Sequence record: LC788710.1
Source of the DNA: Escherichia coli phage Wa28
DNA length: 64,000 nt
Direction: 5' to 3' (one strand)
Shown one piece after another: positions 8,165-37,123 of the stretch. The position numbers and the translations under genes are program-made. Position 1 is the stretch's first letter, and each line of letters starts with the position of its first letter. The notes below the pieces were generated by a model. The model was not told the DNA's origin. It ran no database searches and saw only the letters and a program-made list of their open reading frames with translations.

Positions 8165-8775
8165 AGACTTTCCCTCAAGGAAAGTGAAATACCAGTATAT
8201 GTACCATTACTATTTAACGTAGAGCCAAAACTGTCTCCGTTCATTAATTTAGTTCTAAACAGAATACCATTAAATACCGGTTTCTCACTACCCGTAGTAG
8301 TAATGAATAGATCAGGATAAACACTTATATTCCAAGTATTTCCTGCTGTGTTGATAGAAGTGATTTTGTACACTTTTGGATGGTTGGACAATTTAAATAA
8401 ATCGCCTGGTTTAGGCAGTCCACGAAGTGTACCTTTAGTGTCCATAATAACTATTGAACCTTTTTGTCCGGCAGGAATATTTACAGCACTAGTATCACCA
8501 CGAACTCGGAAAGCCTCATATTGTGGTAATAACACATCAATATAGCTACCTGTTCTTTTATAATCTAGAATGAATGAGTCTAATTTAGCAAATTCATCTG
8601 GGAATAATTCTGGATAAGAGATATTAATACCCCAATATTGAGCAGACACCTTAACCTCCCTAACTTTACCATTAGGTAATTCATCACGAATCATAGGGTC
8701 ATTGTCTACTAAGTTAACGCTTTCAAAACCTAACCCTGATAGCTCTGGGTTCGTGTATGGGTCTGGTAGTCTCAT
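8161..8775 (-). CDS. distal tail protein (pb9-like)
   Basis: 204 aa ORF directly downstream of tape measure gene. Confidence 0.55.
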   Translation of the reverse strand: MRLPDPYTNPELSGLGFESVNLVDNDPMIRDELPNGKVREVKVSAQYWGINISYPELFPDEFAKLDSFILDYKRTGSYIDVLLPQYEAFRVRGDTSAVNIPAGQKGSIVIMDTKGTLRGLPKPGDLFKLSNHPKVYKITSINTAGNTWNISVYPDLFITTTGSEKPVFNGILFRTKLMNGDSFGSTLNSNGTYTGISLSLRESL

Positions 8776-8883
8776 AGTTAATTTCTCCTCTTAATAACAA
8801 TATTATAATAGGATTGGAAAATTTTATCAAGAAATTTTTATTTTTCCATAAAGAAAAGGAGGACATAAAGTCCTCCTCCAGTA

Positions 8884-11800
8884 TTAAGAATTACCAAGTG
8901 ATTTCAGGGTGGTTCCATTCTCATTAAGAGCCTGTTCTACGGCATCCCTGAAAGCAGCACTGTTGCTCGAAGCAAAGTCTCGGAAGCTAGCCGCATCCAT
9001 CGTACTGATGTTCAGCACAATAGGTCTACCCGATGTACCCTTTGAAGATCCTTTGAGTTCATCAGTAGGAGTAGCCTTCATCGGAACCATAGGAGTGATT
9101 ACTTCGGTACCATGCTCACCCATCTGGTAACTAACTCCAGGATACATATTACCACCTTCTGCACGAGGTACGAAAGAGTTAGCATTACCAATCCCTTGAT
9201 CCCCTCGAATATAAGAAAGTTCTCCTGCGTTAGCCGACATAGAAACGTCTACGTTCTTCTGGCGCTCTCCAAGAGTTAAGTAACCAGCTGTCTCAGCACC
9301 AGAGTCCCCAATAGAAGACATACCAGATGCAGAGGATGCTTGAGCAAGAGCCATAGCACCTGCTAAACCAGCCGCAACCATCAGAGGAATAGAAAATGGG
9401 TATGGAACAGCTGTTGCTGCTTGCATCACCGCTACTGCCGTCTGGATAATGATTTGCTTCTTAGCTGCATCTTGCTGGATCTTGAGCTTTTCAGCCTCTA
9501 ACTTCTTGATCTTAGCTTTGGATTGCTCAGATTTACCATCACGTTTCTGTTCTGCTGCAATAGCTGCATCAATAGCACTTACCTGTTGACCAACACTATA
9601 CTGAATCATTGAAGACACAGTTTGCATACCAGCAGCAACTAAAGATGTAGTATCCAGAGATCCCTGAGAGAACTGAATCATAGCATTAGTTAGGTTACCC
9701 ATACTTTGTGCCACTGCAGTTGCTTCAGAGTTCAGCTCGGATAGTTTAGAGATAGCCTGGTCATAGGATGCCATTCTATTCTGCATATCCGCGAAAGCTT
9801 TGTCATCTCCAGATAGTCCAGTTGTAGGTGTATATGTAGCTCCTACAGATGAACCTACTTGTTGTTGCATTTGAGCATTTCTTTGGGCTGCTAATGCGGA
9901 CATTTGTGCTTGAGTTTTTGATATCTCAGAATTCCATCGCATCTGTTCATCCGCATTACCTTTAGTAAACTCTTTCATTTGTTTATAGAATTCTAACTGC
10001 ATTTCCATCTTTTGCATTTCCCCTGCTAGAGGGTACATGCCAGTTAATGTATTCTCAAATGCTTCCTGTCTTTTTGCTGCAACTCTGGATATATTATCTA
10101 ACCTAGCTTTCCAGATTTCACGCTCAATCTGTGCCTGAGCACGTCTTGATTGTTCAGCTTCCTTCTGCTTATCAATCTGCTTGGAGTACCACACATACTT
10201 CTCTTTCTCGATAGTCAGTTCAAGGTTCAACTGAGCTAAACGATATTGAGTATCTGTCATAGTACGGTTATTCAGGAGAGCTATTTCACGATCAACACCA
10301 AGAATCTTATCCGTATAGTCCTTAACTTTCTTCTGAGCTTCCATGTCCTGGTTAGTAATTTTTATACGTTCTAACTGAACCTTAGCTATTTCATTCTCAA
10401 TTGCCTTGTTACCCTTGTTAGTTTCTAGGACACGCTTAAGAGCTGCTTCCTGTTCTTCTAACTGTTGGATTTCTAGACGTCTACCCGCTTCCTGTGCTTT
10501 CTCTTTATCCTTGGTCTGGTTGTACACTTCGGCAATCTTCTGCTGAACTTCTAACTGATTCTTAGTCTCATTACCAGTTAATTTTACGTAACCAGCAAGA
10601 GCTTGTGAAGCAGTCTTCATCTCACTAAGAGTATTATACCCTAAGTTCAGGCTCTTAACATACTCATCAGCATTTTTACCAGTACCCGCAGAAAGAGACT
10701 CAATAGTCTTAATCGTATCTGATAGGGATGCACTAGTTTTAGCCGCAGTATTAGTATTCTGAGCGATGTTCTGGATATCGTTAGCTAAGTCACTGGCAGT
10801 TTTCTTAGCTTGGTCATACGCTTTCTGCTGTTCTGTCAATCCTTTCAGAGTTGCAGAGTTAAAGTCATAAACCGCATCCGGGTCATTTGCATCTTTCTGT
10901 AGGTTAATTTGCTTCTGGAATGCTGTATTAGATTTGGCTGCGGCAGCACCAGCAGCTTGGTATGCCGATTTCCATGCATTAAGATTGCCAGTTGAATCCT
11001 CTACTTCCTTATCAAGACGCTCTACCTGGAGAGCTAATGCAGCAGTATCTGCAATGAATTTCTGGTTTTCTTCAGAAGATCCTATGCGAACTCCTCCTAC
11101 TTCAAAACCTCCTGCAGCTAACCCTACCGGTGCACCTTGAGCAACTAAACGAATAGCCCCTGCTGTAGATGCATCTGCTTGCTGCATACGCTTGTCTAGA
11201 TCAGCTTTTAACTTATTACGCTTTTCTAGAGATTCTTTGTACATATCAAGAGCTTTATTATATCCTTCCTCAGAAGCGGAAAGACTTAAAGCTACAGCAC
11301 CAACGTTAGCTGGGTCAATCTGGCGGTTAGTTTCTTCCTGTGCTCTAGCAGCAGAGGCCGAGATAGATGCTTGAGAAGTATAGAACACTGCGTTGATAGA
11401 ATCAATTACTGGCCCTAAATACTTAGCAGCAGCCTGTTGAACCTTTCTCAGTGCAGCATCAGCATTAGCAGCAAACTGTTCCCAGGGGGTTGCACGAAGT
11501 ACATCATCAAGATAGCCGAAACGTTTAGTAGATTCAGCGATAACTGCGTTAGCATATGCTTGTTGCTTCTGGAAAGTAGAGAGACTATTAACGTTATATG
11601 TAATACCTGTGTTAGCAGCATTTAACTGTTTAACGTAGTCTGCGTAAGCATCGTTAAGACGAATAGTAACACCAAGTTCGTCCAGAAGTTCGATTTCTTG
11701 TTTAGATACACCCTTGATTACACGGTTAAGTGCATCAGTCATATCAACACCAAGAACAGCAGCAGCACGACGAGCTACTAGACCAAATTTATTAAGTTGT

Positions 11801-26892: not shown

Positions 26893-27055
26893 GTTAGCGC
26901 TAATTACCAATTCTCGAAATCTCATAAGATTACACATGAAGGTGTGCCCAGAGGTTACCTAGATGAGAATGAGTCTCATTACCGCCCCGGTACTTAGCAA
27001 GCTAATAGTCACACTATGTGATGATAACATAGTGTGACTATTTTATTTTTAATTG

Positions 27056-27790
27056 TTAGGCGACTTTTAATTTATCAATGAATTGTTGCGGGCTGCAACT
27101 ATATTCTGCGCGTTCTTCCTCGGTCATACCTTCCCAACACATTTTTAAACGGTCGGCTAGGAATTGATAATCATTATCATCATCTAATGATTCATCAATA
27201 AAGGTTTCACCGATCAATGTTACGCCGATTGATAGGATATCATTAACGGCTTGAGCGTCCAGCGTTTTAAATCCAGCACTTGCCGCCGCCGATAATACGC
27301 CTTTATGATCATCAATCATCGTAAAATCAGCGTTCGGATATAACTGTTTAAACAGTTCAAAGTAATAGCTTTTGTATACAGCGTCTTTACTATGATATAT
27401 TTCGCTAACCTTATCCGCTTCAAAGTATTTGTGTAATGTATCGCGAGAGAATACGCGGATATTGCTATTTCCGCGCCCTCGCAAGCCTTGTTTACGCAAA
27501 TAAAAGTAATCGCTTTTAGACATAAGGCGCGCGGTACAAATAATATTTAAAGTATTTGCATCATTCATACATTGGCGCATATATTCAACCAATGGCAATA
27601 AAGAATCCTGCATAATTAAATCATGTTTACAGGCTTCGCGTGAATACTTATTTAAATTTAAATTCCCGTTATCATCAAAGCAAGGCGCTACACGGTGGAA
27701 AGAATTAATGATAGTTCCGTCTAAGTCCCAAATCATAACGCGGGAAATATGCGGGAAAGCGCGGGCAATATTCAAGGTTACTTGATTCAT
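27056..27790 (-). CDS. dmp: 5-prime deoxyribonucleotidase (Dmp-like, HAD superfamily)
   Basis: 244 aa; HAD motif I DLDGT near N-terminus; first gene of a pre-early-like block. Confidence 0.65.
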   Translation of the reverse strand: MNQVTLNIARAFPHISRVMIWDLDGTIINSFHRVAPCFDDNGNLNLNKYSREACKHDLIMQDSLLPLVEYMRQCMNDANTLNIICTARLMSKSDYFYLRKQGLRGRGNSNIRVFSRDTLHKYFEADKVSEIYHSKDAVYKSYYFELFKQLYPNADFTMIDDHKGVLSAAASAGFKTLDAQAVNDILSIGVTLIGETFIDESLDDDNDYQFLADRLKMCWEGMTEEERAEYSCSPQQFIDKLKVA

Positions 27791-27877
27791 TTGTTACATT
27801 CTCCATTTAAGGGATTTAGGTTAATTCAATCTTGCCAGCTAATTATATTGGATTAGCTGGCAATGTTCAATTAACTA

Positions 27878-28270
27878 TTAATTAGTGAGGCCATACGCTA
27901 GCGCGTCACCAATAAAGCTAATATCCTCACCATGTACGCTAGAACGAATCCCCGCGCAAGTGTAAACCATCGCGCTAGCTTCTGGATTGCAGACCGGACA
28001 CGGCTTAACAACTGCAAACGCTAGACCGGATTTAAGCGCATCAATAATAATTGTTTGCACTGTCAAAGTATCAGCGTAAACGCCTTTTGCTTTCGTATGG
28101 CTTGCCACTTTGCCGGTATCATAAGCAAAGGTAGTAACCTGCAAAGCGTCGTTATAATTCAGCAAATCAAAATTAACTTGCCCCGCCTCGACGTGATAAC
28201 GTTCACCATTAGAATAAACTAGAACGATGGAAGAAGTAGCACGATCAAAAGGAATGTTTTGGTTTTTCAT
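27878..28270 (-). CDS. hypothetical protein
   Basis: 130 aa ORF. Confidence 0.4.
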   Translation of the reverse strand: MKNQNIPFDRATSSIVLVYSNGERYHVEAGQVNFDLLNYNDALQVTTFAYDTGKVASHTKAKGVYADTLTVQTIIIDALKSGLAFAVVKPCPVCNPEASAMVYTCAGIRSSVHGEDISFIGDALAYGLTN

Positions 28271-28302
28271 GTTTATGACTCCAGATTATTTAATTACGGG
28301 AT

Positions 28303-28581
28303 TTATTGAAAAAATACATTTAAAGATAAATCAGTTTTACGAAAATATGTTTCGTCGCCGTCTTTCCTTTCTTGATTAAGGTAATCGCCTGTCATTACCT
28401 GAATATGATCTTTTTCGAAAAAGATCATATTTTCGCCAATATTACTATCCCATACGGCATACATTCCCGCGTACATTCCACGGGTAACTAAATAAACGCA
28501 ACTATCAAAAGACATTTCAGACCATGCAATATCTTCTAAACAATTGCTATCAGGGATAGATATATTAATTTTACTAGCCAT
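28303..28581 (-). CDS. hypothetical protein
   Basis: 92 aa ORF. Confidence 0.4.
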   Translation of the reverse strand: MASKINISIPDSNCLEDIAWSEMSFDSCVYLVTRGMYAGMYAVWDSNIGENMIFFEKDHIQVMTGDYLNQERKDGDETYFRKTDLSLNVFFQ

Positions 28582-28633
28582 TTAATAAACCTTTTATTAA
28601 TGGCGGTATATTTCAACCGCCGATTAAATTTAA

Positions 28634-30298
28634 TTATGCAAAGAATTTACCGTTTTTGAAATCAATCAAAGTACGTTGCCCGTTTGCATAGGTAATTAAA
28701 TGCGTTTGCGTCCAGCTTGACGCGCCCACGTTGTAGCCCATATCAAGGGAACCAGCAACGCCAGCGGTATAAACGCCGCCGTAAATGCTAGCCGTGTGAG
28801 TGTGACCAGTGTTAAGGCGTCCCAACTTTTTAAACTGCTTAGGATTGCCCCGACTGCCGTTAATGCCATTGTGACCATGTACGCCGCATTCAATGCCAGC
28901 GATTTTAAAGGACTGGTCAGTAGTCAAAAAAATGGCGTTAAATTCGCATCCTGCAACGTTTCTAAGCGCATAATCTAACACGTTAAAGGTATCATCCTTT
29001 TCAGCAATAGCGGCGTAAATCGCAGCGTTTAGACGGTGATACAGTTCCGCGTTTGCGGGATCATCTTTAATGTTTGCGTTACGATCATCTAACCAGCGGG
29101 ATAATGCTAAATCATGGTTAGATTCCACAATGATTGTTTGACTAAAATCACGTTCCATAGATTCTAATACGCGTCCAGTATCGATAAGATCATCAATAAC
29201 TTTATCACGTCCGGCGGCGTATTGTTTCGCAAGGAATACACCACTAGCGCGGTTATGATGGTTACGCGATGTAAAATCATGCACGTCATGAATAAATTGA
29301 TATTTCGGTTTAAGAATATCAAGCAAGCTGTTTTCACTAGCCCATGAAGCGACGGCGCAATCATCATCTAATTTTTCGGCGTGAATATCGCCATATTGCA
29401 AGCCTAGAACATGATCGGACGTTTCAAAACATCCGGTAGGCATAGCGCAAACATTCAAATCATAGAACATTCCGCTTTCATCCATTGTTTCAATCTGGCG
29501 AGCATAAAATTCGCCGTCGTCGTCGAACTCTACCAGCAAAGCGCCATAATTATGTAAAGCCTCAGCTTTTTGACCTGCTTTCTGCTGAATGTAGTTTTTA
29601 AGCGTAGCCGTTCCGGTTGAATACATACGGCACACTACTTCACCTTTTAACGCTGGCACACTTTCAGCGGTAATTTTAGCGTGACCAATTGCCAGACCTT
29701 CAATATTTAAAGCCGTGGCGGTTTCTGCGAATCCTGAAAGCGGGTAATCTGCCGTTGGTAAAACGTTAATTTCAGCCATGAAAGCAAAGCGGCGGTTATT
29801 TAAAAATACGTTTTTATCACAAACATATTTATCAAATGCGGGATCGTATTTAATACCGTTTGCCCCTTCCCCGTTCTGAAATCCGTTTTTGTTGTAAATG
29901 AATTTGCTAACAAGTAATTCAGCGCCGCAATATTCAGCGAATTTTTCCAGACTTGCTAAAAAGTTTTTATGCGGGAAAGTATTATTTTGAATCGACGTTA
30001 GAATAAAACGGCGACCGGACTTAACTTCCCATTGCTCAACGGTGCTAGAAACAATTCCCGCCGCCTCTGGGCGATCATCGTTTTTAATCGCCTTTTCGGC
30101 TTTTGCCGCTTTCGGTTTCGCTGGTTTATTTGCTTCCAGCCAGTCACAAATTGCGGTCGAATGTTTCGGCGTACCATAAACAGCTTTTGAAATATCGTCG
30201 CAAACTTCCAATTTAGTAGCGCGTAAACGCTTACCGTAGAAGTTAAAATCTGCGGCCATTTTCAAAATTTGAGCTTGTTTTTCTGCGGAAATATTCAT
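28634..30298 (-). CDS. A1: A1-like pre-early protein with metallophosphoesterase motifs
   Basis: 554 aa; GDIH and GHTH metallophosphatase-like motifs; synteny with dmp and A2-like gene. Confidence 0.6.
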   Translation of the reverse strand: MNISAEKQAQILKMAADFNFYGKRLRATKLEVCDDISKAVYGTPKHSTAICDWLEANKPAKPKAAKAEKAIKNDDRPEAAGIVSSTVEQWEVKSGRRFILTSIQNNTFPHKNFLASLEKFAEYCGAELLVSKFIYNKNGFQNGEGANGIKYDPAFDKYVCDKNVFLNNRRFAFMAEINVLPTADYPLSGFAETATALNIEGLAIGHAKITAESVPALKGEVVCRMYSTGTATLKNYIQQKAGQKAEALHNYGALLVEFDDDGEFYARQIETMDESGMFYDLNVCAMPTGCFETSDHVLGLQYGDIHAEKLDDDCAVASWASENSLLDILKPKYQFIHDVHDFTSRNHHNRASGVFLAKQYAAGRDKVIDDLIDTGRVLESMERDFSQTIIVESNHDLALSRWLDDRNANIKDDPANAELYHRLNAAIYAAIAEKDDTFNVLDYALRNVAGCEFNAIFLTTDQSFKIAGIECGVHGHNGINGSRGNPKQFKKLGRLNTGHTHTASIYGGVYTAGVAGSLDMGYNVGASSWTQTHLITYANGQRTLIDFKNGKFFA

Positions 30299-30406
30299 AA
30301 CTAAATCAACTCCTATAAAGGGATAAATATTAATACTGGCAATATTGCCAAATATAACGCCTTGCCTGAAGTGAGGACAATTTAAAAGGCGTTATAATTT
30401 GCAATA

Positions 30407-30652
30407 TTATTCTAGAATTGGCATAAGACTAGAACTAAAACCGCAACTAATAGCCAGCGTTAAAAATATAATCGCTAGATATTTTTGTTTATTAGCTTGA
30501 CGTTTAAACATATCAGCGGCATAAGCTGAATTAATGCCGATAATAGAGATTATATATTTGCCGTAATTAAATATAAATATAGCGGCAACTATAAATAAAC
30601 CTAAAATAAACGCTTCACTAGGGAAGAAAATCATTTTAATAACTCCGGTCAA
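30407..30652 (-). CDS. small integral membrane protein
   Basis: 81 aa, three hydrophobic segments. Confidence 0.4.
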   Translation of the reverse strand: MTGVIKMIFFPSEAFILGLFIVAAIFIFNYGKYIISIIGINSAYAADMFKRQANKQKYLAIIFLTLAISCGFSSSLMPILE

Positions 30653-30664
30653 AGGGAAATTATA

Positions 30665-30682
30665 GCGGGGAATATTCCCCGC
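30665..30682. terminator. perfect 18-bp palindrome GCGGGGAATATTCCCCGC, likely bidirectional terminator
   Basis: read directly, just downstream of A2-like stop. Confidence 0.5.
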
Positions 30683-30692
30683 TAATTAGAAT

Positions 30693-31109
30693 TTATTCAC
30701 CTGCGGCCTGTTTTACTTCCTCCGCTACGCCTAACAATTGCGCTACGGCGTCCAGCGTTTCCAGTTTAGCACTTTCAAGGCTTGCCAGATCGTCGGCATC
30801 TTTTACGATACCTGAATCAATGGCGTGTTTAGCGATGACGCGCACATAGTGAGCTTTACGAATTGAGCTACCGCCGCCAACTTTACGCGGTTTATCGCTT
30901 TTCTGGTATGCTTTTGCGCTTGTCAGTTTAGAACGTACAGAAACAGGACTTGCAGCGCCAACGGCGGCGGCAATTTCTTTCAGGCCGTCACTGTTAGCAA
31001 ATTCAATTCCGCTTTTAGCGACCATTTCAGAATACATAGAAACAGCTTTTTCGGTGTTTTCTTCGTTCCAAGAGAATTTTGCTGTTTTTTCGGTTTTAAC
31101 GTTAGACAT
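30693..31109 (-). CDS. A2: A2-like pre-early DNA-binding protein
   Basis: 138 aa; position upstream of A1-like gene. Confidence 0.45.
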   Translation of the reverse strand: MSNVKTEKTAKFSWNEENTEKAVSMYSEMVAKSGIEFANSDGLKEIAAAVGAASPVSVRSKLTSAKAYQKSDKPRKVGGGSSIRKAHYVRVIAKHAIDSGIVKDADDLASLESAKLETLDAVAQLLGVAEEVKQAAGE

Positions 31110-32099
31110 AATTTAATACTCCATTCAATTATTAATTAAGGGATTATGATTAACTAATGTTAATCCATATATTCCCCATATTTCAGGGGAATATAAAGTT
31201 AGCACTAATTAGCTAATAGCTTGCCATTTATCATCTTTCTGAATGATCTTTACAACGTCGCCGGATTTAACGCGAACATTATAAATTGGCTTGCCGTGGT
31301 TACTGCGTTCCGTTTCCGCAAAGACCGCTTCAATTTTATCGAAAGGATCTAGCGCCGCACCTTTAATACGTTCGGCTTTTCCAGTTAATTCATCCGTTTT
31401 AGTAACGAAAGGAATAAATACAGATTGACCTACTTTCGGCGCGGTAAACTTCCCCGCCGTTGTAGTCTGGCCTTTCGTTTCCGTCTTGCCGTCCTACGAG
31501 ATAAATAATAGGTTATTCCCGAAAATGGCGCAAGCGTATTTTTGTAAAGAAACGTAAAGACAAACGCCACCGCACCACGTCCAGCGGCGCACTAAATTTA
31601 ATGAAACGGGCGCGCGAATAACACCAAAACAACCATTTTAGCAAGTAATTTTTTCATTTATATCTGCTCTAGGGTACTTGACAAAATCTAAAATCCTCGT
31701 GGTGAGGTTTTCTCGGTGTACCCCTTATGATTGCCTATCTTTTCCTTTGAGGCGCTTAGAATCGCTTACAGAGCGTTTTAGACCCTGTTAATAACTTATA
31801 CAAAAAGCAAAAATGAAATTTAATGAGTTATCCACTTGATTTTTCAAAAAAGTATTTTCTGCTGTTATTTTTCATTGACAAATAAGTTTAGACGTGCATT
31901 GATTGGTTAGCAGACTAACAATCGCTAGGATGATAATCACGCTGGTGGATTGTAGCAGCCGAAACAGTTAGCAGACTATTAATCATGGAAAATCTCATTA
32001 GCCAACTAACTATTTCATATTATATAATATACTTATAAATTAAAGAGAAATAATAACTATAAGAAACTATCGGCTAAGTGAGAACCACTATCATTTAAC

Positions 32100-32220
32100 T
32101 TATGCACAAAGTTATCCACAGCACTTTTTGACTTGACACAATAAGCAACATTTTGGCGACTTATCCACAGACTTATATACAGGTTATCCTACTGTATAAA
32201 TATACAGGGTAGAATGGTAG
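32100..32220. repeat. left copy of ~110-bp imperfect inverted repeat with DnaA boxes and LexA-box-like palindrome
   Basis: TTATCCACA at ~32111 and ~32161; CTGTATAAATATACAG at ~32200; reverse complement matches 36180-36320. Confidence 0.7.
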
Positions 32221-32456
32221 CAGTAACAACCGCAATCAAATTTAAGCGGTCTAAAACGCGCTACACGGCGTTTTCTCACTGCTGCCCTTATTATAATAAA
32301 GCCTTGTGTACGCTTACAGAGAGCTAGAAATAGAAAACGCGCGGTTATCATAAAAACAGGCAGTAAGCAAGAAATAAAAAACCTTTTCTTTTTTCTTGCC
32401 CCTAGCGAACAATTATATATATCATTCACTCACCGATTAACGAGGGAGACAAAGAA

Positions 32457-33458
32457 ATGTCTACTGTAAGAATTGCAGTACCAGCAAACGCCACTATTAT
32501 TAATGGTAGTTTGCGCAACCTGCTAGATGGTAGTAGTGCGGCAAGCGTACAACATACCGCTACTATTGTAGAAAAGATTCACGATGAAATTTTAGACAAT
32601 AATGATACTCATTATTCAGTTGATGATTTCACGCTATTACTAGACCAGACAAGGGCGCTAGTAATTTTCAACCGTGATTATCACATTTTCCGTAATAGTC
32701 GGGGAACTGATATTGATTTTATCATTGTTGGTTATAGTGAGTCTCATAGTGGTTACATTGCGCGATTATATAACGTGCAAGAAAAAGAGCAGGTAACAGC
32801 AACAAAAGTAAATAATATCAGACTGGATAGTGTCGGATCGTTATTAAATAGTATCTGGCGTGAATTATCATCCAGTTATAAAGGTGCTGATAGTGACGCA
32901 ATCGAAACAACTGGCGTATTGTGTTTTGAACGCGCTACGGGTAACATGTTGATTCCTAATGATTATTTAGAGTATGGGAATGAATCAAACGTTGCAAACG
33001 CTGGATTTACACTTCTCCCGCTTGACAATGTAGCAAAACAGGCTGTACAATCTCAAACTTCAAGCGCAAATGCGCAAACTACTGAAAATAAAGGAAATAT
33101 TATGTCTAAAGTATCTTCTATCGTTGCCGCTAATAAATCCGCCGTTATTAACGCTGCTAAACTGGAAGCGGGTAAAATTGCACTGACTCAAATCACAAAA
33201 GTAGCGGCGAAAAAAGCGCCGTTTATGATTAAAGGGTATATTGATACGCCGATTGGTCGTGTAGTGATCGCTAACCTGCTGAGTGTAGCGGTTGACCAGT
33301 ACGCCCCGACTAACCAGAAAGCGAAAGCGGTAGCAGGCGCGGCAATGGAAGCGGCAATGTTGGAAATGGTACAGAGTTTCAATATTGCTGAAATGATCGA
33401 TGAAATGGTAAAAGGCATTGACATTTCTACCTTTACCCAAAACACCGAAACAGAATAA
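32457..33458 (+). CDS. hypothetical protein (first gene of opposite-strand block)
   Basis: 333 aa ORF with Shine-Dalgarno GAGGGAG upstream. Confidence 0.5.
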   Translation: MSTVRIAVPANATIINGSLRNLLDGSSAASVQHTATIVEKIHDEILDNNDTHYSVDDFTLLLDQTRALVIFNRDYHIFRNSRGTDIDFIIVGYSESHSGYIARLYNVQEKEQVTATKVNNIRLDSVGSLLNSIWRELSSSYKGADSDAIETTGVLCFERATGNMLIPNDYLEYGNESNVANAGFTLLPLDNVAKQAVQSQTSSANAQTTENKGNIMSKVSSIVAANKSAVINAAKLEAGKIALTQITKVAAKKAPFMIKGYIDTPIGRVVIANLLSVAVDQYAPTNQKAKAVAGAAMEAAMLEMVQSFNIAEMIDEMVKGIDISTFTQNTETE

Positions 33459-33467
33459 TAATTACTA

Positions 33468-33497
33468 GCGGGGATTATTCCCCGCTTTACTATTTCC
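33468..33497 (+). terminator. rho-independent terminator
   Basis: palindrome GCGGGGATTATTCCCCGC followed by T-rich tract. Confidence 0.55.
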
Positions 33498-33524
33498 CTG
33501 TTAATTGTTAGGAGACTAATTATT

Positions 33525-33836
33525 ATGCAACTGAACCAAACCATGTTGGCGCAATTAGCCGAAAAAATGCCGAATAGCCCACACGTTAATTATTCAGATG
33601 ATAAAAGCAATATTCCTGTATGGGAAAAGCAAGGGCGTCCCTTTTTATGGGAACATGTAGAAAGCGCTAATAATTATCATGCTTTCTTTGATCGTGGTTA
33701 TGGCTGGCTATGTATTTTTGTAGGTGAAACTTTGCTGGATTATGGAATGGATGAAATAGTCCGTGATGACGTAATTTTCTTGAATAAAGGATTTTACGAT
33801 GTAGCAAATTCTCTTTATTTCCCTGTTAATTGTTAG
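33525..33836 (+). CDS. hypothetical protein
   Basis: 103 aa; preceded by conserved leader TTTCCCTGTTAATTGTTAGGAGACTAATTA. Confidence 0.45.
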   Translation: MQLNQTMLAQLAEKMPNSPHVNYSDDKSNIPVWEKQGRPFLWEHVESANNYHAFFDRGYGWLCIFVGETLLDYGMDEIVRDDVIFLNKGFYDVANSLYFPVNC

Positions 33837-33846
33837 GAGACTAATT

Positions 33847-34341
33847 ATGTCAGAAGAAAAATATGGCTTTTCGCTAGAAAGTGTGAATGAAGCTAAACAC
33901 GATATGATCGTTTTAGTTGATTGTCATACTGGCTATTGCGGGGAGGGCTGGACGGAGGAACATTTTGTTCCCGCTGGCTGTGATCTGGACGCTTTCGCAA
34001 ACGAACACGCATATGATAATGCTTCTCGTTTCGGTAGCGATGGGGAAGAAGATGAAGAAACAGGGGAATGGATTGAAAATGATAATGTTTATGCGAGTAT
34101 TTATCATTATCAATTGAGTAAATCCGGTATTTATGTAAATGGCGGCGATCCTATTAATACCGTTATGAAACTAATTATTAAACACGGTGGCGCGGAAATA
34201 ATTGGTAACAAGGCGTTATTATATGCAAATCGATTAAAACAGCTTGTTTATATTCCTGATAATTCCCGTTGGGATGAATATGCCGTTTTACAGAAAGAAC
34301 TAAAACGCTGTTTCGGTGTGGAAGCATTAGAAATAGTCTAA
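33847..34341 (+). CDS. hypothetical acidic protein
   Basis: 164 aa; same conserved leader/RBS as previous gene. Confidence 0.5.
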   Translation: MSEEKYGFSLESVNEAKHDMIVLVDCHTGYCGEGWTEEHFVPAGCDLDAFANEHAYDNASRFGSDGEEDEETGEWIENDNVYASIYHYQLSKSGIYVNGGDPINTVMKLIIKHGGAEIIGNKALLYANRLKQLVYIPDNSRWDEYAVLQKELKRCFGVEALEIV

Positions 34342-34355
34342 TGTAAAGTTTTGTA

Positions 34356-34383
34356 AAGGTCGCCTATTATGGCGACCTTTTTT
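34356..34383 (+). terminator. rho-independent terminator
   Basis: 10-bp stem AAAGGTCGCC/GGCGACCTTT then T-run. Confidence 0.7.
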
Positions 34384-34448
34384 GTTATAATGCCTTTACA
34401 CCGAAACGGTGGGTTGAAAATTTTCCCTGATTTCTAGGAGGCGTTAAA

Positions 34449-34676
34449 ATGGTACATTCATCATCTTCTGCAATTTTTAACGGTATGGAATGGGTATCCG
34501 TTCCCGCTATTGTCAGCGTTATGGTTTCTGAGTTCGGCATAGGTAAAACTTATGTTACCATTCAGGGGCTTTACGACAATGACAAGATTGACCAGCAAAC
34601 CGCCGGATTTTTGCTGGATGAATTGAAAGCTAACCATTGCACTAAAAAGCAAGCGGCAAAAATTGTTTTAATGTAA
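34449..34676 (+). CDS. hypothetical protein
   Basis: 75 aa; RBS TCTAGGAGG. Confidence 0.4.
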   Translation: MVHSSSSAIFNGMEWVSVPAIVSVMVSEFGIGKTYVTIQGLYDNDKIDQQTAGFLLDELKANHCTKKQAAKIVLM

Positions 34677-34874
34677 TTATTAAAGGGGGTATATTATCCC
34701 CTAATTTCTAGGAGCTAATAAAATGGTTATTTTTCGATCTATTCTGGCTAGTATCTTGGGCGCTATTTTATCGCTGTTTGTAATAGCTTTCGGCGTTCAC
34801 GTGGTTATTATTGGAGCAGGTATCGCGGGGTTTTCTTACTTGTTAGGCTGTATGACTGGTAAAGGGGAATAAAA

Positions 34875-35087
34875 ATGTTAAAGAATGTTTCCCTTGCCCG
34901 TTCCAAAGGTTTTAAGCTGGTGGATGTTAACACGTTCGAGCGTCCAGATTGTAAAATTGAATATGTAGCACGCAACAAAAATGCTTTCCGTGTTACAGAA
35001 AAGAAGTTTGACAAGCGCGGCAATTTGGTAGCCGAAACGATTAAACACTTTGCCACCTTTTACGCTGCATTTCGTGGGGTATTATAA
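34875..35087 (+). CDS. hypothetical protein
   Basis: 70 aa ORF. Confidence 0.4.
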   Translation: MLKNVSLARSKGFKLVDVNTFERPDCKIEYVARNKNAFRVTEKKFDKRGNLVAETIKHFATFYAAFRGVL

Positions 35088-35193
35088 TGGAAAGGGCAAT
35101 TGTTAAAATGTTAACTTTTGTTTGTGGCGTGTCTAGTGCTGCAATGTTGATCACGCTAGTGATTATGATTATCCGTGACGCGAGGATCTTTTA

Positions 35194-35538
35194 ATGGTAA
35201 TTTATGAGGGCAATCGCTTTATTACTAATTGCCGTCCGGCATTATTAGCAAACTATTTAAATCAGCTTTCACCAGTTTATAAAGGCGTAGTTAATATCTA
35301 TGAGGGCAAAGCACATTATAAAATTTCTGCCGTTGTCGCCCGTGAACTAGCGTTTCAATTTTTAACTTTTGGGTCTTGTGACGTTCAGGTTATGGGGGAA
35401 GCGTTAATAGCGGAAAATGAAAATGAATTTATTGACATTTTCCGCAAAGTATGTACGGAGCGCCTGATTATGAAAGGCGCATATATTCAATCAACCGCTG
35501 AAAGTATTGAAACAGCGTTTCGAAAGGTGGCGCAATGA
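35194..35538 (+). CDS. hypothetical protein
   Basis: 114 aa ORF. Confidence 0.45.
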   Translation: MVIYEGNRFITNCRPALLANYLNQLSPVYKGVVNIYEGKAHYKISAVVARELAFQFLTFGSCDVQVMGEALIAENENEFIDIFRKVCTERLIMKGAYIQSTAESIETAFRKVAQ

Positions 35539-35735
35539 CTAAAGATGAAGCACTAGAAAAAATGAAACAAGGTTTCAAAGTTAGTAATCAATATTTTACT
35601 AGCGATGAATTTTTGTACATGAAAGAAAACGGCGTGATCATGTCAGAAGATGGTTACAATTTTAATGATTGGTTTTTCAATATTCGCAAGGGGGAGGAAT
35701 GGAAGCTAGACGGTTGGAGCGTTTACCGTGAATAG
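35535..35735 (+). CDS. hypothetical protein
   Basis: 66 aa; start overlaps previous stop (ATGA). Confidence 0.4.
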   Translation: MTKDEALEKMKQGFKVSNQYFTSDEFLYMKENGVIMSEDGYNFNDWFFNIRKGEEWKLDGWSVYRE

Positions 35736-35861
35736 CTGGTGGCGAAAAACACAAAGCCATAAATCTAATAATACCGCTGGGAAACATTCCCAGCGTTTAC
35801 GATTTGGTAATGGCTTTACAATGATATTGATAATCATTCTCATTCTAGGAGCGATGGCGTT

Positions 35862-36056
35862 ATGAGTGATAAAATTGTTGTAACTAAAACTACTGTTACC
35901 GTTGATACTTTCTTTGTGCCTGATACGCTGGAAAATCGGCAAGCGGTGGAGCGTGGCGATTATGATAAAGTGATTTATGATAACGATGGTTACTACCAAC
36001 ATTTGGTAGACTCCTACGGCGAAAGCGAAAAGATCACACATCGACTACCAGACTAA
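35862..36056 (+). CDS. hypothetical protein
   Basis: 64 aa; RBS TCTAGGAGCG. Confidence 0.4.
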   Translation: MSDKIVVTKTTVTVDTFFVPDTLENRQAVERGDYDKVIYDNDGYYQHLVDSYGESEKITHRLPD

Positions 36057-36179
36057 TAATAACGGGGCGCAACTATCTGCCCCCTTTTCTGGCCTCCTCC
36101 AATTTTGCCCTTATTAAAATACCTCCTCCAAAAATAAACGCGTTAGAATGCGTTACAGAGCGTTTAAAGGCTATATTAG

Positions 36180-36320
36180 ATTATTCTCCTACTGGAATAT
36201 ACTGTATATTTATACAGTAGAATAACCTGTTAATAAGTCTGTTGATAACGCCTCAAAATCGCTAGGATTTTGTCAAGTCAAATCATGCTGTTAATAAACC
36301 TGTGGATAACTTAAATAGCA
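36180..36320. repeat. right copy of inverted repeat with near-consensus LexA-box-like palindrome and DnaA boxes
   Basis: TACTGTATATTTATACAGTA at ~36196; TGTGGATAA at ~36301; reverse complement aligns to 32100-32220. Confidence 0.7.
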
Positions 36321-36480
36321 GTGTTTCTCACTTCCCTTTCTAAATGCGAATCATTATCATTATGCAACTCATTCGCATTCAATTCTGTAAATGATAACCA
36401 TTCTCATTCCACTTTCTAAACGCGAATCATTATCATTCGCATTCAACTTTTTAAATGAGAATCAATCTCATTATCATTCG
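36300..36480. repeat. AT-rich imperfect palindrome repeats (GCGAATCATTATCATTCGC family, about 4 copies)
   Basis: direct reading. Confidence 0.7.
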
Positions 36481-36521
36481 CATTTCGGCAGGCAGGGCAT
36501 TTTCATTTTGCCCTGCGCTTT

Positions 36522-37123
36522 TGTGCAAATCCGACATTGCTCCACGGGTGTTACGTGCGGGCGTGTATGTGCGAATCCGACAATTTTTGGTAGTGTGCAA
36601 ATCCGATGGGAAATATTTTTATAGTGTGCGAATCCGACAATGAATTTTCCTAAAAACTCCAGCAATCCGCAACTGCGATGCAATCCAGCTGGATTTACTA
36701 GAGTATGTGCAAATCCGACAAGTGTTAAGGTGTGCGAATCCGATAAGATTTTTGTGATTTCGATTGGAGGGTGTGTGATTGTGTGGGTTTGGGGAGAAGT
36801 TGAGAGAGTGAGAGAAAATAAGGGTAGAAACTGGAGTGGGCAGCATGGGTGGCGTGAAACGCCTGGTTTGCTGCGTTTTTGGGGATAATGCGGGATGTTT
36901 TGGCTAGAATTGAGATTAGGGGAGATAAAGCGAAATTTTATTAGCAAAATGGGGCAAAATCGCTTGACAAGTGAAAATTCCTGTGGCTCTAAAAAACTCA
37001 GGCAAATATGGGCCTTCGGCCCGAAATAATGCTGCTATTTTCAGTGTTCCTAAAAACTTTGGAGACTCCTATCAATGTGCAAATCCGACCATAAATTTCT
37101 AGAAACACAGTGTGCAAATCCGA
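36522..37123. repeat. direct repeat array of 14-15-mer GTGCRAATCCGAYA (about 9 copies, irregular 30-45 bp spacing); candidate injection-stop-signal-like region
   Basis: copies near 36522, 36568, 36595, 36626, 36706, 36731, 37077, 37110 plus a degenerate one near 36666. Confidence 0.75.

What the first reader, a model, noticed from the sequence alone, without database searches (positions are those of the whole stretch)
32100..36320. Opposite-strand 8-gene block flanked by ~110-bp inverted repeats carrying DnaA boxes and near-consensus LexA-box palindromes
The segment 32100-32220 and the reverse complement of 36180-36320 align over ~110 bp. Each copy carries consensus DnaA boxes (TTATCCACA at ~32111 and ~32161; TGTGGATAA at ~36301) and a CTGT-N8-ACAG palindrome. 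The right copy, TACTGTATATTTATACAGTA, matches the E. coli SOS-box consensus TACTGTATATATATACAGTA at 19 of 20 positions; the left copy is TACTGTATAAATATACAGGG. The repeats bracket the only plus-strand gene block in the pre-early region (32457-36056). In the left copy the palindrome overlaps a plausible -10 (TATAAAT). An SOS-type operator in a strictly lytic phage module would be unexpected. Alternatives are an ori-like DnaA-binding region, a remnant of an inversion, or a cassette boundary.
Basis: partly seen in the sequence, partly recalled or inferred. Interest (0 to 1): 0.7.

Follow-up and report, generated by a model that had tools for sequence, protein, structure and literature searches.

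The report
T5-type injection-stop inverted repeats, LexA-like palindrome
The two ~130-bp inverted repeats are the already described DnaA-box repeats that border a swappable gene cassette in the first-injected DNA of T5-like phages, but each also carries a near-perfect binding site for the host SOS repressor LexA, which I found conserved across the whole phage family and mentioned in no paper I could search.

Summary
Arms 32076-32209 and 36200-36333 are inverted copies. Each holds two pairs of DnaA or DnaA-like boxes and, at its cassette-facing end, a CTGT-N8-ACAG palindrome.

The window is an Epseptimavirus, a T5-like phage. The arms are the known 131-bp IRC-spacer-IRD and IRD'-spacer-IRC' repeats of the T5 first-step-transfer region. 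They were described with their eight DnaA boxes in T5 and 25 relatives, including EPS7, and proposed as part of the injection stop signal. The structure is therefore already known.

What I could not find in the literature is the LexA reading.
- The right palindrome scores above all 16 literature E. coli operators; the left scores above 10 of them.
- The palindrome core is the best-conserved segment of 61 distinct arms, at fixed spacing from the DnaA boxes.
- A CTGTAT-N4-ATACAG palindrome beside DnaA boxes recurs in Proteus, Aeromonas and Vibrio relatives, and in unrelated metagenomic phages that lack A2 in the stretches fetched.

No promoter overlap is supported. The mapped cassette promoter lies about 190 bp downstream of the left palindrome. 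The cassette varies in content, carries no recombinase, and is inverted in My1-type phages.

Best reading: a host DnaA plus LexA landing pad at the cassette borders and at the transfer boundary. Binding and function are untested.

The parts
32076..32209 (+). Left (A1-proximal) arm, equivalent to T5 IRC-spacer-IRD. Order: conserved GTGAGAAMCACTATCATTTAA motif, DnaA pair 1, spacer with a conserved CTTGACA, DnaA pair 2, a TTATCC, then the palindrome.
   Evidence: Inverted-repeat detection. 77-79% alignment to T5 6098-6237. T5 nomenclature from Davison.
32100..32120 (+). DnaA box pair 1 of the left arm: TTATGCACA, a 3-bp gap, TTATCCACA.
   Evidence: The same columns hold consensus or one-mismatch boxes in most of 61 distinct arms.
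32161..32181 (+). DnaA box pair 2 of the left arm: TTATCCACA, a 3-bp gap, TTATATACA (one mismatch).
   Evidence: The pair-1-to-pair-2 offset is 61 bp in 59 of 61 arms.
32190..32209 (.). LexA-type palindrome of the left arm, TACTGTATAAATATACAGGG (core 32192-32207).
   Evidence: 21.0 bits on the literature-based LexA matrix. The same 16-mer core lies at T5 6213-6228. The distance from pair 2 to the end of the palindrome is 47 bp in 61 of 61 arms.
32396..32425 (+). Probable cassette promoter (TTGCCC-18-TATCAT), counterpart of the experimentally characterised T5 promoter upstream of gene 011.
   Evidence: T5 annotation at 6411-6489. Literature statement.
32457..36056 (+). Variable pre-early accessory cassette of nine ORFs. 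It includes a DUF7566 protein, the T5.014-type small protein and several proteins of unknown function. It holds no recombinase.
   Evidence: Gene presence and absence across 40 loci.
36064..36083 (+). Terminator-like hairpin at the end of the cassette.
36200..36219 (.). LexA-type palindrome of the right arm, TACTGTATATTTATACAGTA (19 of 20 to the consensus).
   Evidence: 27.3 bits, above all 16 known E. coli boxes. The T5 counterpart lies at 9409-9428.
36200..36333 (-). Right (distal) arm, equivalent to T5 IRD'-spacer-IRC'. It lies about 9.65-9.8 kb from the genome's left end, which is the first-step-transfer boundary.
   Evidence: EPS7 coordinates 9748-9927. The T5 hit lies under the annotated 'injection stop signal (iss)' feature.
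36228..36309 (-). Four DnaA or DnaA-like boxes of the right arm: 36301-36309 TTATCCACA, 36289-36297 TTATTAACA, 36240-36248 TTATCAACA, 36228-36236 TTATTAACA.
36322..36484 (.). AT-rich repeats and palindromes adjoining the right arm (AATGCGAATCATTATCATT type). They correspond to the T5 DRE/DRC region and resemble Fur boxes.
   Evidence: Repeat family D1 and inverted pair I11. Fur-consensus scan.
36519..36751 (+). Five copies of GTGCGAATCCGACAA-type direct repeats, corresponding to the T5 DRD series of the injection-stop region.
   Evidence: Repeat family D2. Davison's description of Repeat Region 3.

Best explanation
**What it is.** The two arms are this phage's copies of the T5-family IRC-spacer-IRD and IRD'-spacer-IRC' repeats. 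They sit in the terminal-repeat, first-step-transfer DNA. Each arm is a fixed-geometry landing pad for host DNA-binding proteins. It holds two pairs of DnaA boxes 61 bp apart. Its cassette-facing end carries a 16-20 bp palindrome that is, by sequence, a top-affinity LexA operator.

**Where it sits.** The pads stand in mirror orientation at both borders of a dispensable, exchangeable pre-early accessory cassette. The distal pad lies at the ~8% point where DNA transfer pauses.

**How I think it works.** Host DnaA and LexA are both present and intact when only this DNA is inside the cell, and they occupy the pads. The resulting nucleoprotein blocks mark or insulate the cassette borders. At the distal arm they help hold the DNA at the transfer boundary. 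The pair of repeats has also served as a substrate for cassette inversion and exchange during evolution.

**Shown here:**
- identity with the T5 repeats;
- composition, spacing and conservation of the sites;
- variability and inversion of the cassette.

**Inferred:**
- that DnaA and LexA bind (I put LexA binding in vitro at about 0.85);
- that binding matters to the phage (about 0.45);
- the hold or insulator role (about 0.35).
For: **Identity.**
- The window is 94-99% identical to EPS7-type phages.
- Both arms align to the T5 arms.
- The T5 counterpart of the right arm lies under the annotated iss feature.
- Davison describes the 131-bp repeats, the eight DnaA boxes in pairs 3 bp apart, and the variable coding region between them.
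- The arm occurs in 537 GenBank phage records, usually twice per terminal repeat.

**Site quality.** 27.3 and 21.0 bits against 3.9-25.3 for known operators; the shuffle maximum is 20.6.

**Constraint.** Across 61 distinct arms, mean column conservation is:
- palindrome core 0.958
- DnaA pair 2 0.906
- DnaA pair 1 0.874
- spacer 0.75
- inner flank 0.657.

The spacings of 61 bp and 47 bp are essentially invariant.

**Family-wide recurrence.** The loci below were picked only by A1 homology, at 31-42% amino-acid identity. Four of five such lineages carry CTGTAT-N4-ATACAG palindromes next to DnaA boxes, flanking their divergent cassettes where a flanking pair is present:
- Proteus phage Stubb
- Aeromonas phage AhSzw-1
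- Vibrio phage 70E37.1
- Vibrio phage Cody

**Host factor rather than phage factor.**
- The same module (two DnaA boxes 11-12 bp apart, then the palindrome) occurs in metagenomic contigs with no A1, A2 or Dmp in the stretches fetched.
- Those contigs carry an SU10/P22-type portal or a CobT/CbbQ gene pair distantly like Vibrio phage ICP2.

**Exclusive location.** No other site above 13.3 bits exists in the 64 kb.

**Link to pausing.** Davison reports that Rhoades saw two first-step bands, at about 9.6 kb and about 5.8 kb, near the two arms.

**Cassette behaviour.** Size 1.5-4.6 kb, content variable, inverted in L038 and the My1-type loci.
Against: - No binding data exist for DnaA or LexA on this DNA. 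The 2023 and 2026 papers say functional studies are lacking.
- LexA is not membrane-bound, and no physical mechanism by which bound proteins would stop DNA entry is established.
- The left arm appears dispensable. A T5 mutant deleted from hegG to 017 is viable with smaller plaques. That the deletion is contiguous and removes the arm is my inference.
- Vibrio phage River4 keeps the DnaA pairs but has lost the palindrome in one arm.
- Five Tequintavirus left arms carry ACAA in place of ACAG.
- T5 plates on recA1 laboratory strains (my own knowledge), so LexA cleavage cannot be a required step.
- A2, a dimeric DNA-binding protein, has an invariant SVRSKL segment across the family and could read a conserved palindrome.
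- The palindrome halves resemble degenerate DnaA-type boxes of the form TTATATACAG. The LexA likeness could therefore partly be a by-product of inverted box-like repeats.
Confidence: 0.55

Rival explanations
1. Classical SOS operator. LexA bound at the palindromes represses a promoter inside or just outside each arm. The cassette, or a short arm-proximal transcript, would then be expressed more strongly in SOS-induced cells.
For: - Operator quality equals or exceeds chromosomal SOS boxes.
- A promoter-like TAGCCA-18-TATAAT (31999-32028, plus strand) reads into the left arm and is conserved in T5.
- A weaker TTGAAT-18-GATAAT (36382-36353, minus strand) reads into the right arm.
- In non-T5 contigs the module lies in divergent intergenic regions, upstream of early-type promoters.
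Against: [quoted passage not shown] None of them overlaps an arm.
- No acceptable -35/-10 pair overlaps either palindrome.
- The right palindrome follows the cassette terminator, and no downstream gene lies on either strand.
- No conserved structured RNA follows the arms. The hairpin has z = -3.9 in this lineage only; T5 and the right arm give z between -0.1 and -0.9. There is no Rfam hit.
Confidence: 0.15
2. The palindrome is the target of a phage protein, A2 or the A1-A2 complex. That protein binds or cuts there to restart DNA transfer. This is Davison's restriction-type model, which lists the palindromes of this region as candidate cleavage sites. The match to LexA would be coincidental or competitive.
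For: - A2 is a dimeric double-stranded-DNA-binding protein required for second-step transfer (literature).
- Its SVRSKL segment and the flanking residues are invariant from Salmonella to Vibrio phages, matching the family-wide constancy of CTGTAT/ATACAG.
- Davison names the region's palindromes as possible cleavage sites.
Against: - The conserved 12 bases coincide exactly with the LexA half-sites. That is roughly a 1 in 4,000 coincidence per half-site.
- The same module occurs in phages with no detectable A2 or A1 within the fetched 6-15 kb.
- No sequence specificity has been reported for A2 in the text I could read.
- A2 has no solved or Pfam-classified homologue to support a specificity prediction.
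Confidence: 0.15
3. The repeats are mainly recombination substrates or scars, that is, cassette boundaries left by insertion, exchange and inversion. They would have no protein-binding function of their own.
For: - Cassette content and length vary widely between the arms.
- The whole cassette is inverted in L038 and in the My1-type loci.
- The centre of the palindrome flips between AA and TT among arms, as expected from exchange between the copies.
Against: - A pure recombination substrate needs only sequence identity. Here specific 9-mers and the palindrome are conserved while the spacer and flanks drift.
- Spacing is fixed.
- The boxes and palindrome persist in lineages where the rest of the arm is no longer alignable.
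- Per Davison, type 4 phages keep the distal arm alone.
Confidence: 0.07
4. An oriC-like or datA-like DnaA element. The DnaA-box arrays next to an AT-rich palindrome would act as a replication origin, or as a sink that inactivates or titrates host DnaA.
For: - Eight DnaA-type boxes lie in about 260 bp with fixed spacing.
- An AT-rich 16-mer lies directly beside them.
Against: - T5 origins were mapped near the genome centre, and the replication genes are not yet in the cell during first-step transfer (Davison).
- I saw no 13-mer or DnaA-trio type unwinding element.
- One or two copies per cell cannot titrate about 1,000 DnaA molecules (my own estimate).
Confidence: 0.05

Closest known systems
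T5 IRC-spacer-IRD and IRD'-spacer-IRC' repeats (Repeat Regions 2 and 3 of the left terminal repeat; injection stop signal region)
   Same: - Position, orientation and ~131-bp length.
- Two pairs of DnaA or variant boxes, 3 bp apart within each pair.
- A variable coding block between the arms, and DRE/DRD-type repeats beyond the distal arm.
- Direct sequence homology at 75-85% identity.
   Different: Nothing structural; this is the same element in an Epseptimavirus. The only addition here is reading the terminal palindrome as a LexA-type operator, and its family-wide conservation.
E. coli SOS boxes (LexA operators such as umuDC/sbmC, dinD, recN, sulA)
   Same: - A 20-bp TACTGTAT-N4-ATACAGTA palindrome scoring as high as or higher than the strongest chromosomal operators.
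- The natural variants seen among the phages, CTGG and CCAG, also occur in chromosomal boxes.
   Different: - It does not overlap a mapped promoter.
- It sits in a strictly lytic phage's first-injected DNA.
- It comes as an inverted pair about 4 kb apart, fused at fixed distance to DnaA boxes.
- Binding and SOS inducibility are untested.
Host LexA co-opted by temperate phages (GIL01, CTXphi, coliphage 186 tum)
   Same: A phage genome carries canonical host LexA sites. The GIL01 example is in PMC4551915, listed; the others are from my own knowledge.
   Different: Those sites overlap switch promoters and couple induction to DNA damage. There is no lysogeny here, no promoter overlap, and LexA cleavage cannot be required because T5 grows on recA hosts (my own knowledge).
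DnaA-box clusters oriC, datA and DARS
   Same: Several consensus and near-consensus DnaA boxes at fixed spacing.
   Different: No recognisable unwinding element, and T5 origins map elsewhere. The cluster is present as two inverted copies in DNA that is in the cell before any phage replication gene.
Invertible gene segments of phages (Mu G, P1 C; Gin/Cin/Hin systems)
   Same: A gene block flanked by inverted repeats and found in both orientations among relatives.
   Different: - No invertase gene in or beside the block.
- Orientation is uniform in the 35 Markadamsvirinae loci where cassette genes were detected.
- The inversion is an evolutionary event between subfamilies, not a switch.

Membership tests
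T5-family IRC/IRD first-step-transfer inverted repeats | A pair of ~131-bp inverted repeats inside the terminal repeat, between the A2-A1-dmp operon and the non-coding repeat region at the ~8% point. | tested here: met
   Arms at 32076-32209 and 36200-36333. A2 is at 30693-31109 and A1 at 28634-30298. The EPS7 equivalents are 5508-5688 and 9748-9927.
T5-family IRC/IRD first-step-transfer inverted repeats | Four DnaA or variant boxes per arm, arranged as two pairs with 3 bp between the boxes of a pair. | tested here: met
   Boxes at 32100/32112 and 32161/32173, and at 36301/36289 and 36240/36228, each pair with a 3-bp gap.
T5-family IRC/IRD first-step-transfer inverted repeats | Constant spacer geometry between the two halves of an arm (Davison gives 52 bp). 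| tested here: met
   The pair-to-pair offset is 61 bp in 59 of 61 distinct arms, including both window arms and T5. I could not reproduce Davison's exact IRC/IRD boundaries without his figure. The constancy is met; the number 52 was not checked.
T5-family IRC/IRD first-step-transfer inverted repeats | Sequence homology to the T5 repeats. | tested here: met
   75-85% identity over 130-180 nt to T5 6098-6237 and 9381-9559. The T5 hit lies under the iss annotation.
T5-family IRC/IRD first-step-transfer inverted repeats | Functions as (part of) the injection stop signal. | not testable with these tools
   This is only proposed in the literature, and experiments are lacking.
LexA operator (SOS box) | CTGT-N8-ACAG palindrome with an AT-rich spacer, scoring within the range of proven operators. 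| tested here: met
   27.3 and 21.0 bits against 3.9-25.3 for 16 literature sites. The shuffle maximum is 20.6.
LexA operator (SOS box) | Overlaps or directly adjoins a promoter, so that LexA represses transcription. | tested here: not met
   - The mapped cassette promoter starts 186 bp after the end of the left 20-mer.
- No -35/-10 pair overlaps either site.
- The right site follows a terminator.
LexA operator (SOS box) | Bound by LexA, and the target derepressed on RecA-dependent LexA cleavage. | not testable with these tools
   No binding or expression data were found. The two 20-mers occur in no paper of the searchable library.
DnaA-dependent replication origin | DnaA-box cluster next to an unwinding element where replication starts. 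| tested here: inconclusive
   The box cluster is present. I recognised no 13-mer or DnaA-trio element by eye. The literature places T5 origins near the genome centre.
Site-specific invertible segment (Gin/Hin type) | A serine-invertase or tyrosine-recombinase gene in or next to the segment, with both orientations present within one phage population. | tested here: not met
   No recombinase domain in the nine cassette proteins or in A2. All 35 Markadamsvirinae loci with detectable cassette genes share one orientation; only the My1-type and L038 loci are inverted.

The most novel reading that the evidence does not exclude
The T5-family injection-stop repeats are composite landing pads for two, possibly three, host global DNA-binding proteins. 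DnaA boxes are fused at fixed distance to a top-affinity LexA operator, with Fur-box-like repeats alongside. Host LexA would then be a previously unrecognised player in the first minutes of infection by strictly lytic Demerecviridae. It could help hold or insulate the first-transferred DNA, or tune the pre-early programme to the SOS state. The same DnaA-plus-LexA module is also used by unrelated lytic phages upstream of their early promoters, which would make it a general cis-element of leading-end phage DNA.
Probability: 0.4. Interest if true: 0.65.

Novelty: already known. Interest (0 to 1): 0.42.

Why it matters
How T5 stops DNA transfer at about 8% and restarts it has been open for some sixty years. 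The 2023 and 2026 papers I read say that functional studies of these sites are lacking and that the mechanism of second-step transfer is still poorly understood.

The repeats themselves are not news. What may be new is that their best-conserved element is a near-consensus LexA operator welded to the DnaA boxes. It is kept from Salmonella to Vibrio phages and is present in unrelated phages.

That names a second concrete host factor. It can be tested with standard tools: gel shifts, lexA and dnaA host mutants, point mutations in the palindrome, and first-step-transfer fragment assays. If LexA matters, it would be a rare case of a strictly lytic phage building host SOS-repressor sites into its entry DNA.

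Tried and rejected
1. **Promoter overlapping the palindrome.** The consensus scan and direct reading found no acceptable -35 for TATAAA/TATATT or for TAGAAT. The literature places the block promoter elsewhere.
2. **Small structured RNA next to the arms.**
   - The left inner flank 32216-32286 folds well (z = -3.9).
   - T5's left flank, T5's right flank and the window's right flank do not (z -0.9, -0.3 and -0.1).
   - The left-flank sequences of 28 lineages fall into unrelated types.
   - Rfam gave only two sub-threshold hits inside the cassette.
3. **Programmed invertible segment.** There is no recombinase.
4. **LexA cleavage as the 'go' signal for second-step transfer.** Attractive because A1 drives host DNA degradation, but rejected because T5 grows on recA1 strains (my own knowledge, not tested here).
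5. **Host-specific motif switching as a test of LexA.**
   - The distant A1-bearing loci L043-L056 proved mostly not T5-like. They carry A1 only and hold no DnaA or LexA sites.
   - The one T5-like low-GC contig, L045, uses a different 36-bp palindrome present four times, and its host is unknown. The test could not be made.
6. **A2 fold or specificity.** No solved homologue and no Pfam family. I ran no further search on it.
7. **A named non-T5 isolate carrying the module.** A BLAST of the L175 module returned only T5-like genomes among its top rows.
8. **Davison's 2015 review.** It is not held in the library. Heusterspreute 1987 and Wang 2005 are not searchable either, so an earlier mention of LexA cannot be excluded.

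Full report
**What the window is.** The stretch 31800-36600 is 98-99% identical to Salmonella phages SE18, 9-29 and 1-19. It is 94.6% identical to Escherichia phage EPS7 (Demerecviridae, Epseptimavirus). In EPS7 the matching stretch lies at 5247-10165 from the left genome end.

This is the terminal-repeat, first-step-transfer (pre-early) region of a T5-like phage. A1 is at 28634-30298 and A2 at 30693-31109, both on the minus strand. The plus-strand block at 32457-36056 holds nine ORFs.

**Checking the observation.** The inverted repeat is real. Arms 32076-32142 and 32150-32207 pair with 36267-36333 and 36202-36259 at 78% and 86%.

- Four of the seven TTWTNCACA matches in the 64 kb fall in the two arms.
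- Two of the three CTGT-N8-ACAG matches fall there as well.

For scoring I first built a LexA weight matrix from operator sequences I remembered. I then rebuilt it from the 16 boxes printed in Table 4 of PMC3009722.

- The right palindrome scores 27.3 bits and the left 21.0.
- The 16 known operators score 3.9-25.3 when each is left out in turn.
- The next best site in the window scores 13.3.
- The best score in 100 shuffles is 20.6.

**The structure is already known.** T5 has the same two arms, at about 6098-6237 and 9381-9559 of NC_005859. It has the same 16-mer, CTGTATAAATATACAG, in both.

Davison's preprint (10.1101/866236) describes them as the 131-bp IRC-spacer-IRD and IRD'-spacer-IRC' repeats. 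He reports eight DnaA or variant boxes arranged in pairs 3 bp apart. The repeats bracket the poorly conserved coding block of T5 (T5.011-T5.017 in NC_005859; Davison numbers the ORFs differently). He compares them in 25 T5-like phages including EPS7, and argues that they belong to the injection stop signal.

The T5 RefSeq record annotates 9140-10149 as the injection stop signal, and the window's right arm aligns under it. The arm occurs in 537 GenBank phage records. Papers from 2023 and 2026 repeat the DnaA-box description and say functional studies are lacking.

**What I could not find in the literature.**
- Davison's text contains no mention of LexA, SOS or promoters.
- No paper in the library combines LexA with T5 terms in a relevant way.
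- The two 20-mers occur in no paper, while the E. coli operators I searched alongside them do.

The older subscription papers (Heusterspreute 1987, Wang 2005, Davison 2015) could not be read. An earlier remark on LexA therefore cannot be excluded.

**Conservation within close relatives.** I fetched 54 IMG/VR loci by A1 homology. Forty of them, with A1 at 67% identity or more, have both arms. Pooling 61 distinct arm sequences gives these mean column conservations:

| Segment | Mean conservation |
|---|---|
| Palindrome core | 0.958 |
| TTATCC before the palindrome | 0.951 |
| DnaA pair 2 | 0.906 |
| DnaA pair 1 | 0.874 |
| Outer flank | 0.786 |
| Spacer | 0.75 |
| Inner flank | 0.657 |

- Geometry is fixed. 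Pair 1 to pair 2 is 61 bp in 59 of 61 arms, and pair 2 to the end of the palindrome is 47 bp in 61 of 61.
- The departures from CTGT/ACAG are CTGG and CCAG, both found in chromosomal LexA boxes, and ACAA in five left arms.
- The two central bases are either AA or TT, never TA or AT. The palindrome therefore seems to flip as a unit.

**Conservation in distant relatives.** Loci chosen only by A1 homology, at 31-42% amino-acid identity, show the same pairing of DnaA boxes with a CTGTAT-N4-ATACAG palindrome.

- Proteus phage Stubb: sites at 4573 and 9839.
- Aeromonas phage AhSzw-1: sites at 3393 and 4923, an inverted pair flanking its divergent block.
- Vibrio phage 70E37.1: sites at 7165, 10262 and 10939.
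- Vibrio phage Cody: sites at 516 and 586.

The central four bases differ between lineages (AAAT, GGAT, ATCC) while the half-sites stay the same. Vibrio phage River4 keeps the DnaA pairs but has lost the palindrome in one arm, so the element is widespread but not universal.

A1-only loci from other phage types (L043-L056) have neither feature.

**The module outside the family.** I scanned IMG/VR for TTATCCACA, then 0-30 bases, then CTGTAT-N4-ATACAG. It returned 82 stretches. My rough estimate of the chance expectation is one to a few.

Most are T5-like, but several are not. They have no A1, A2 or Dmp, and no match to any ORF of 80 aa or more from the window or from four distant Demerecviridae loci. 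They carry an SU10/P22-type portal and a GP88-family protein (L166). Others carry a CobT/CbbQ gene pair distantly like that of Vibrio phage ICP2 (L133, L175, L178).

In these contigs the module sits in divergent intergenic regions about 85-150 bp upstream of early-type promoters. L166 has two DnaA boxes, the palindrome, then two more DnaA boxes. L102 has six LexA-like sites and five DnaA boxes within about 600 bp.

A shared cis-module without a shared phage protein points to host factors. The caveat is that only 6-15 kb of each contig was available.

**Is it a working SOS operator?** By sequence, yes. By context, not in the usual sense.

- The T5 literature recognises three experimentally characterised pre-early promoters: PH22, PD/E20 and one just upstream of gene 011. 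The last is annotated at T5 6411-6489.
- Its window counterpart, TTGCCC-18-TATCAT at 32396-32425, starts 186 bp after the end of the left 20-mer.
- The right palindrome follows the cassette's terminator-like hairpin at 36064-36083.
- No acceptable -35/-10 pair overlaps either palindrome.
- Promoter-like hexamers read into each arm from outside: TAGCCA-18-TATAAT at 31999-32028 and TTGAAT-18-GATAAT at 36382-36353. A roadblock role is therefore conceivable but unsupported.
- No conserved structured RNA follows the arms.

**The cassette.** The block between the arms ranges from about 1.5 to 4.6 kb, and its gene content varies. It contains no recombinase.

In L038 and in the My1-type loci L039 and L040, homologues of cassette genes lie on the A1 strand. 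In L038 these are the first three genes and the last; in L039 and L040, the first and the last. They keep the window's gene order but begin next to the distal arm. The first gene is 46-50% identical at the amino-acid level and the last is 53-54%.

The whole cassette is therefore inverted relative to the 35 Markadamsvirinae loci in which cassette genes were detected. This fits recombination between the arms as a rare evolutionary event, not a switch.

A T5 mutant deleted from hegG to 017 is viable with small plaques. If that deletion is contiguous, which I infer, it removes the left arm, so the left arm is dispensable.

**Who binds the palindrome?**

For LexA:
- the exact coincidence of the conserved bases with the LexA half-sites;
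- scores at the top of the natural range;
- exclusive location in the only DNA that meets an intact host proteome;
- presence of the module in phages without A2.

For a phage protein:
- A2 is a dimeric DNA-binding protein needed for second-step transfer;
- its SVRSKL segment is invariant across the family.

My estimates are about 0.85 that LexA binds in vitro, about 0.45 that this matters to the phage, and about 0.15 that A2 is the relevant reader. LexA cleavage cannot be a required step, because T5 grows on recA1 strains (my own knowledge).

**Mechanism I commit to.** Each arm is a landing pad for host DnaA and LexA. The pads stand in mirror orientation at both borders of an exchangeable pre-early cassette. 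The distal pad lies at the transfer boundary.

The bound proteins form nucleoprotein blocks that mark or insulate the cassette. At the distal arm they help hold the first-transferred DNA. This is in line with Davison's DnaA-tether idea. It also fits Rhoades's two first-step bands near the two arms, as reported by Davison.

The identity, composition, spacing, conservation and cassette behaviour are shown here. Binding and the hold or insulator role are inferred. Overall confidence in this reading is 0.55, and about 0.35 for the specific role.

**Verdict.** The structure and its DnaA boxes are already known. Its function is open. Interest is moderate.

Noticed in passing
window 26965-36475 (best matches at 27166, 35823 and 36340-36475): Fur-box-like 19-mers, at least 14 of 19 matching GATAATGATAATCATTATC, cluster in the pre-early terminal-repeat region. 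Thirty of the 34 hits in the window lie there, the best at 17 of 19. Thirty shuffles of the window give a mean of 5.4 hits and a maximum of 11. The repeats beside the right arm contain TGAGAAT-N-ATTCTCA-type palindromes, and the same motif sits just upstream of the module in the non-T5 contig L175.
   Followed up: partly
L102 12000-12560; L133 ~10572; L136 5200-5346; L166 6464-6527; L175 6705-6743; L178 ~13103: The 'DnaA-box pair plus CTGTAT-N4-ATACAG' module occurs in metagenomic viral contigs that are not T5-like. They carry an SU10/P22-type portal, a GP88-family protein, or a CobT/CbbQ pair distantly like Vibrio phage ICP2. The module lies in divergent intergenic regions upstream of early-type promoters. 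L102 has six LexA-like sites and five DnaA boxes in about 600 bp.
   Followed up: partly
L038 2975-5300; L039 2884-4700; L040: In the My1-type and L038 loci the cassette between the arms is inverted relative to T5 and EPS7. Homologues of window genes 32457-33458 and 35862-36056 lie on the A1 strand, starting at the distal arm. Davison describes this block as replaced by other sequences read in the opposite direction; some of those genes are in fact homologous.
   Followed up: partly
window 32199-32200 and 36209-36210; arms of L001-L042: The two central bases of the palindrome are AA in some arms and TT in others, never TA or AT. The window's two arms agree in the arm frame, whereas T5's two arms disagree. 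This suggests that the palindrome flips as a unit, by exchange between the arms or by template switching.
   Followed up: no
window 32078-32098 and 36311-36331 (minus strand): A third conserved motif, GTGAGAAMCACTRYYATTTAA, lies just outside the first DnaA pair in both arms. It is also present in Proteus phage Stubb and in My1-type arms. I know of no binding protein for it.
   Followed up: no
window 31756-31771; L059 about 10905-10920: The 16-mer TTAGAATCGCTTACAG in Repeat Region 1 of the window is identical in Vibrio phage 70E37.1, where it lies directly upstream of a third LexA-like palindrome (L059 10939). Stubb (L057 9839) also has a palindrome in the equivalent A2-upstream region. The window has none there.
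   Followed up: no
window 32216-32286: The inner flank of the left arm folds into a stable nested hairpin (-27.4 kcal/mol, z = -3.9). This holds in this lineage only; T5 and the right arm lack it.
   Followed up: partly
L045 5260-5520, 6281, 7785, 9666, 13242: A low-GC (32%) T5-like metagenomic contig with A1, A2, Dmp and a T5-type terminase has no DnaA or LexA sites. Instead it carries a 36-bp palindrome, ATATAAGCATATTAGAATATTCTAATATGCTTATAT, at four places (three perfect copies and one at 89%), plus tandem GCATATTA repeats.
   Followed up: no
window 35535-35735: The 66-aa cassette protein has a sub-threshold match to the Thoeris anti-defence Tad2-like domain (E = 0.005, 17.8 bits against a cut-off of 25).
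   Followed up: no
window 33491-33523 and 33816-33848: A 33-bp perfect direct repeat, TATTTCCCTGTTAATTGTTAGGAGACTAATTAT, precedes two consecutive cassette genes. It looks like a duplicated ribosome-binding or intergenic unit (family D6).
   Followed up: no
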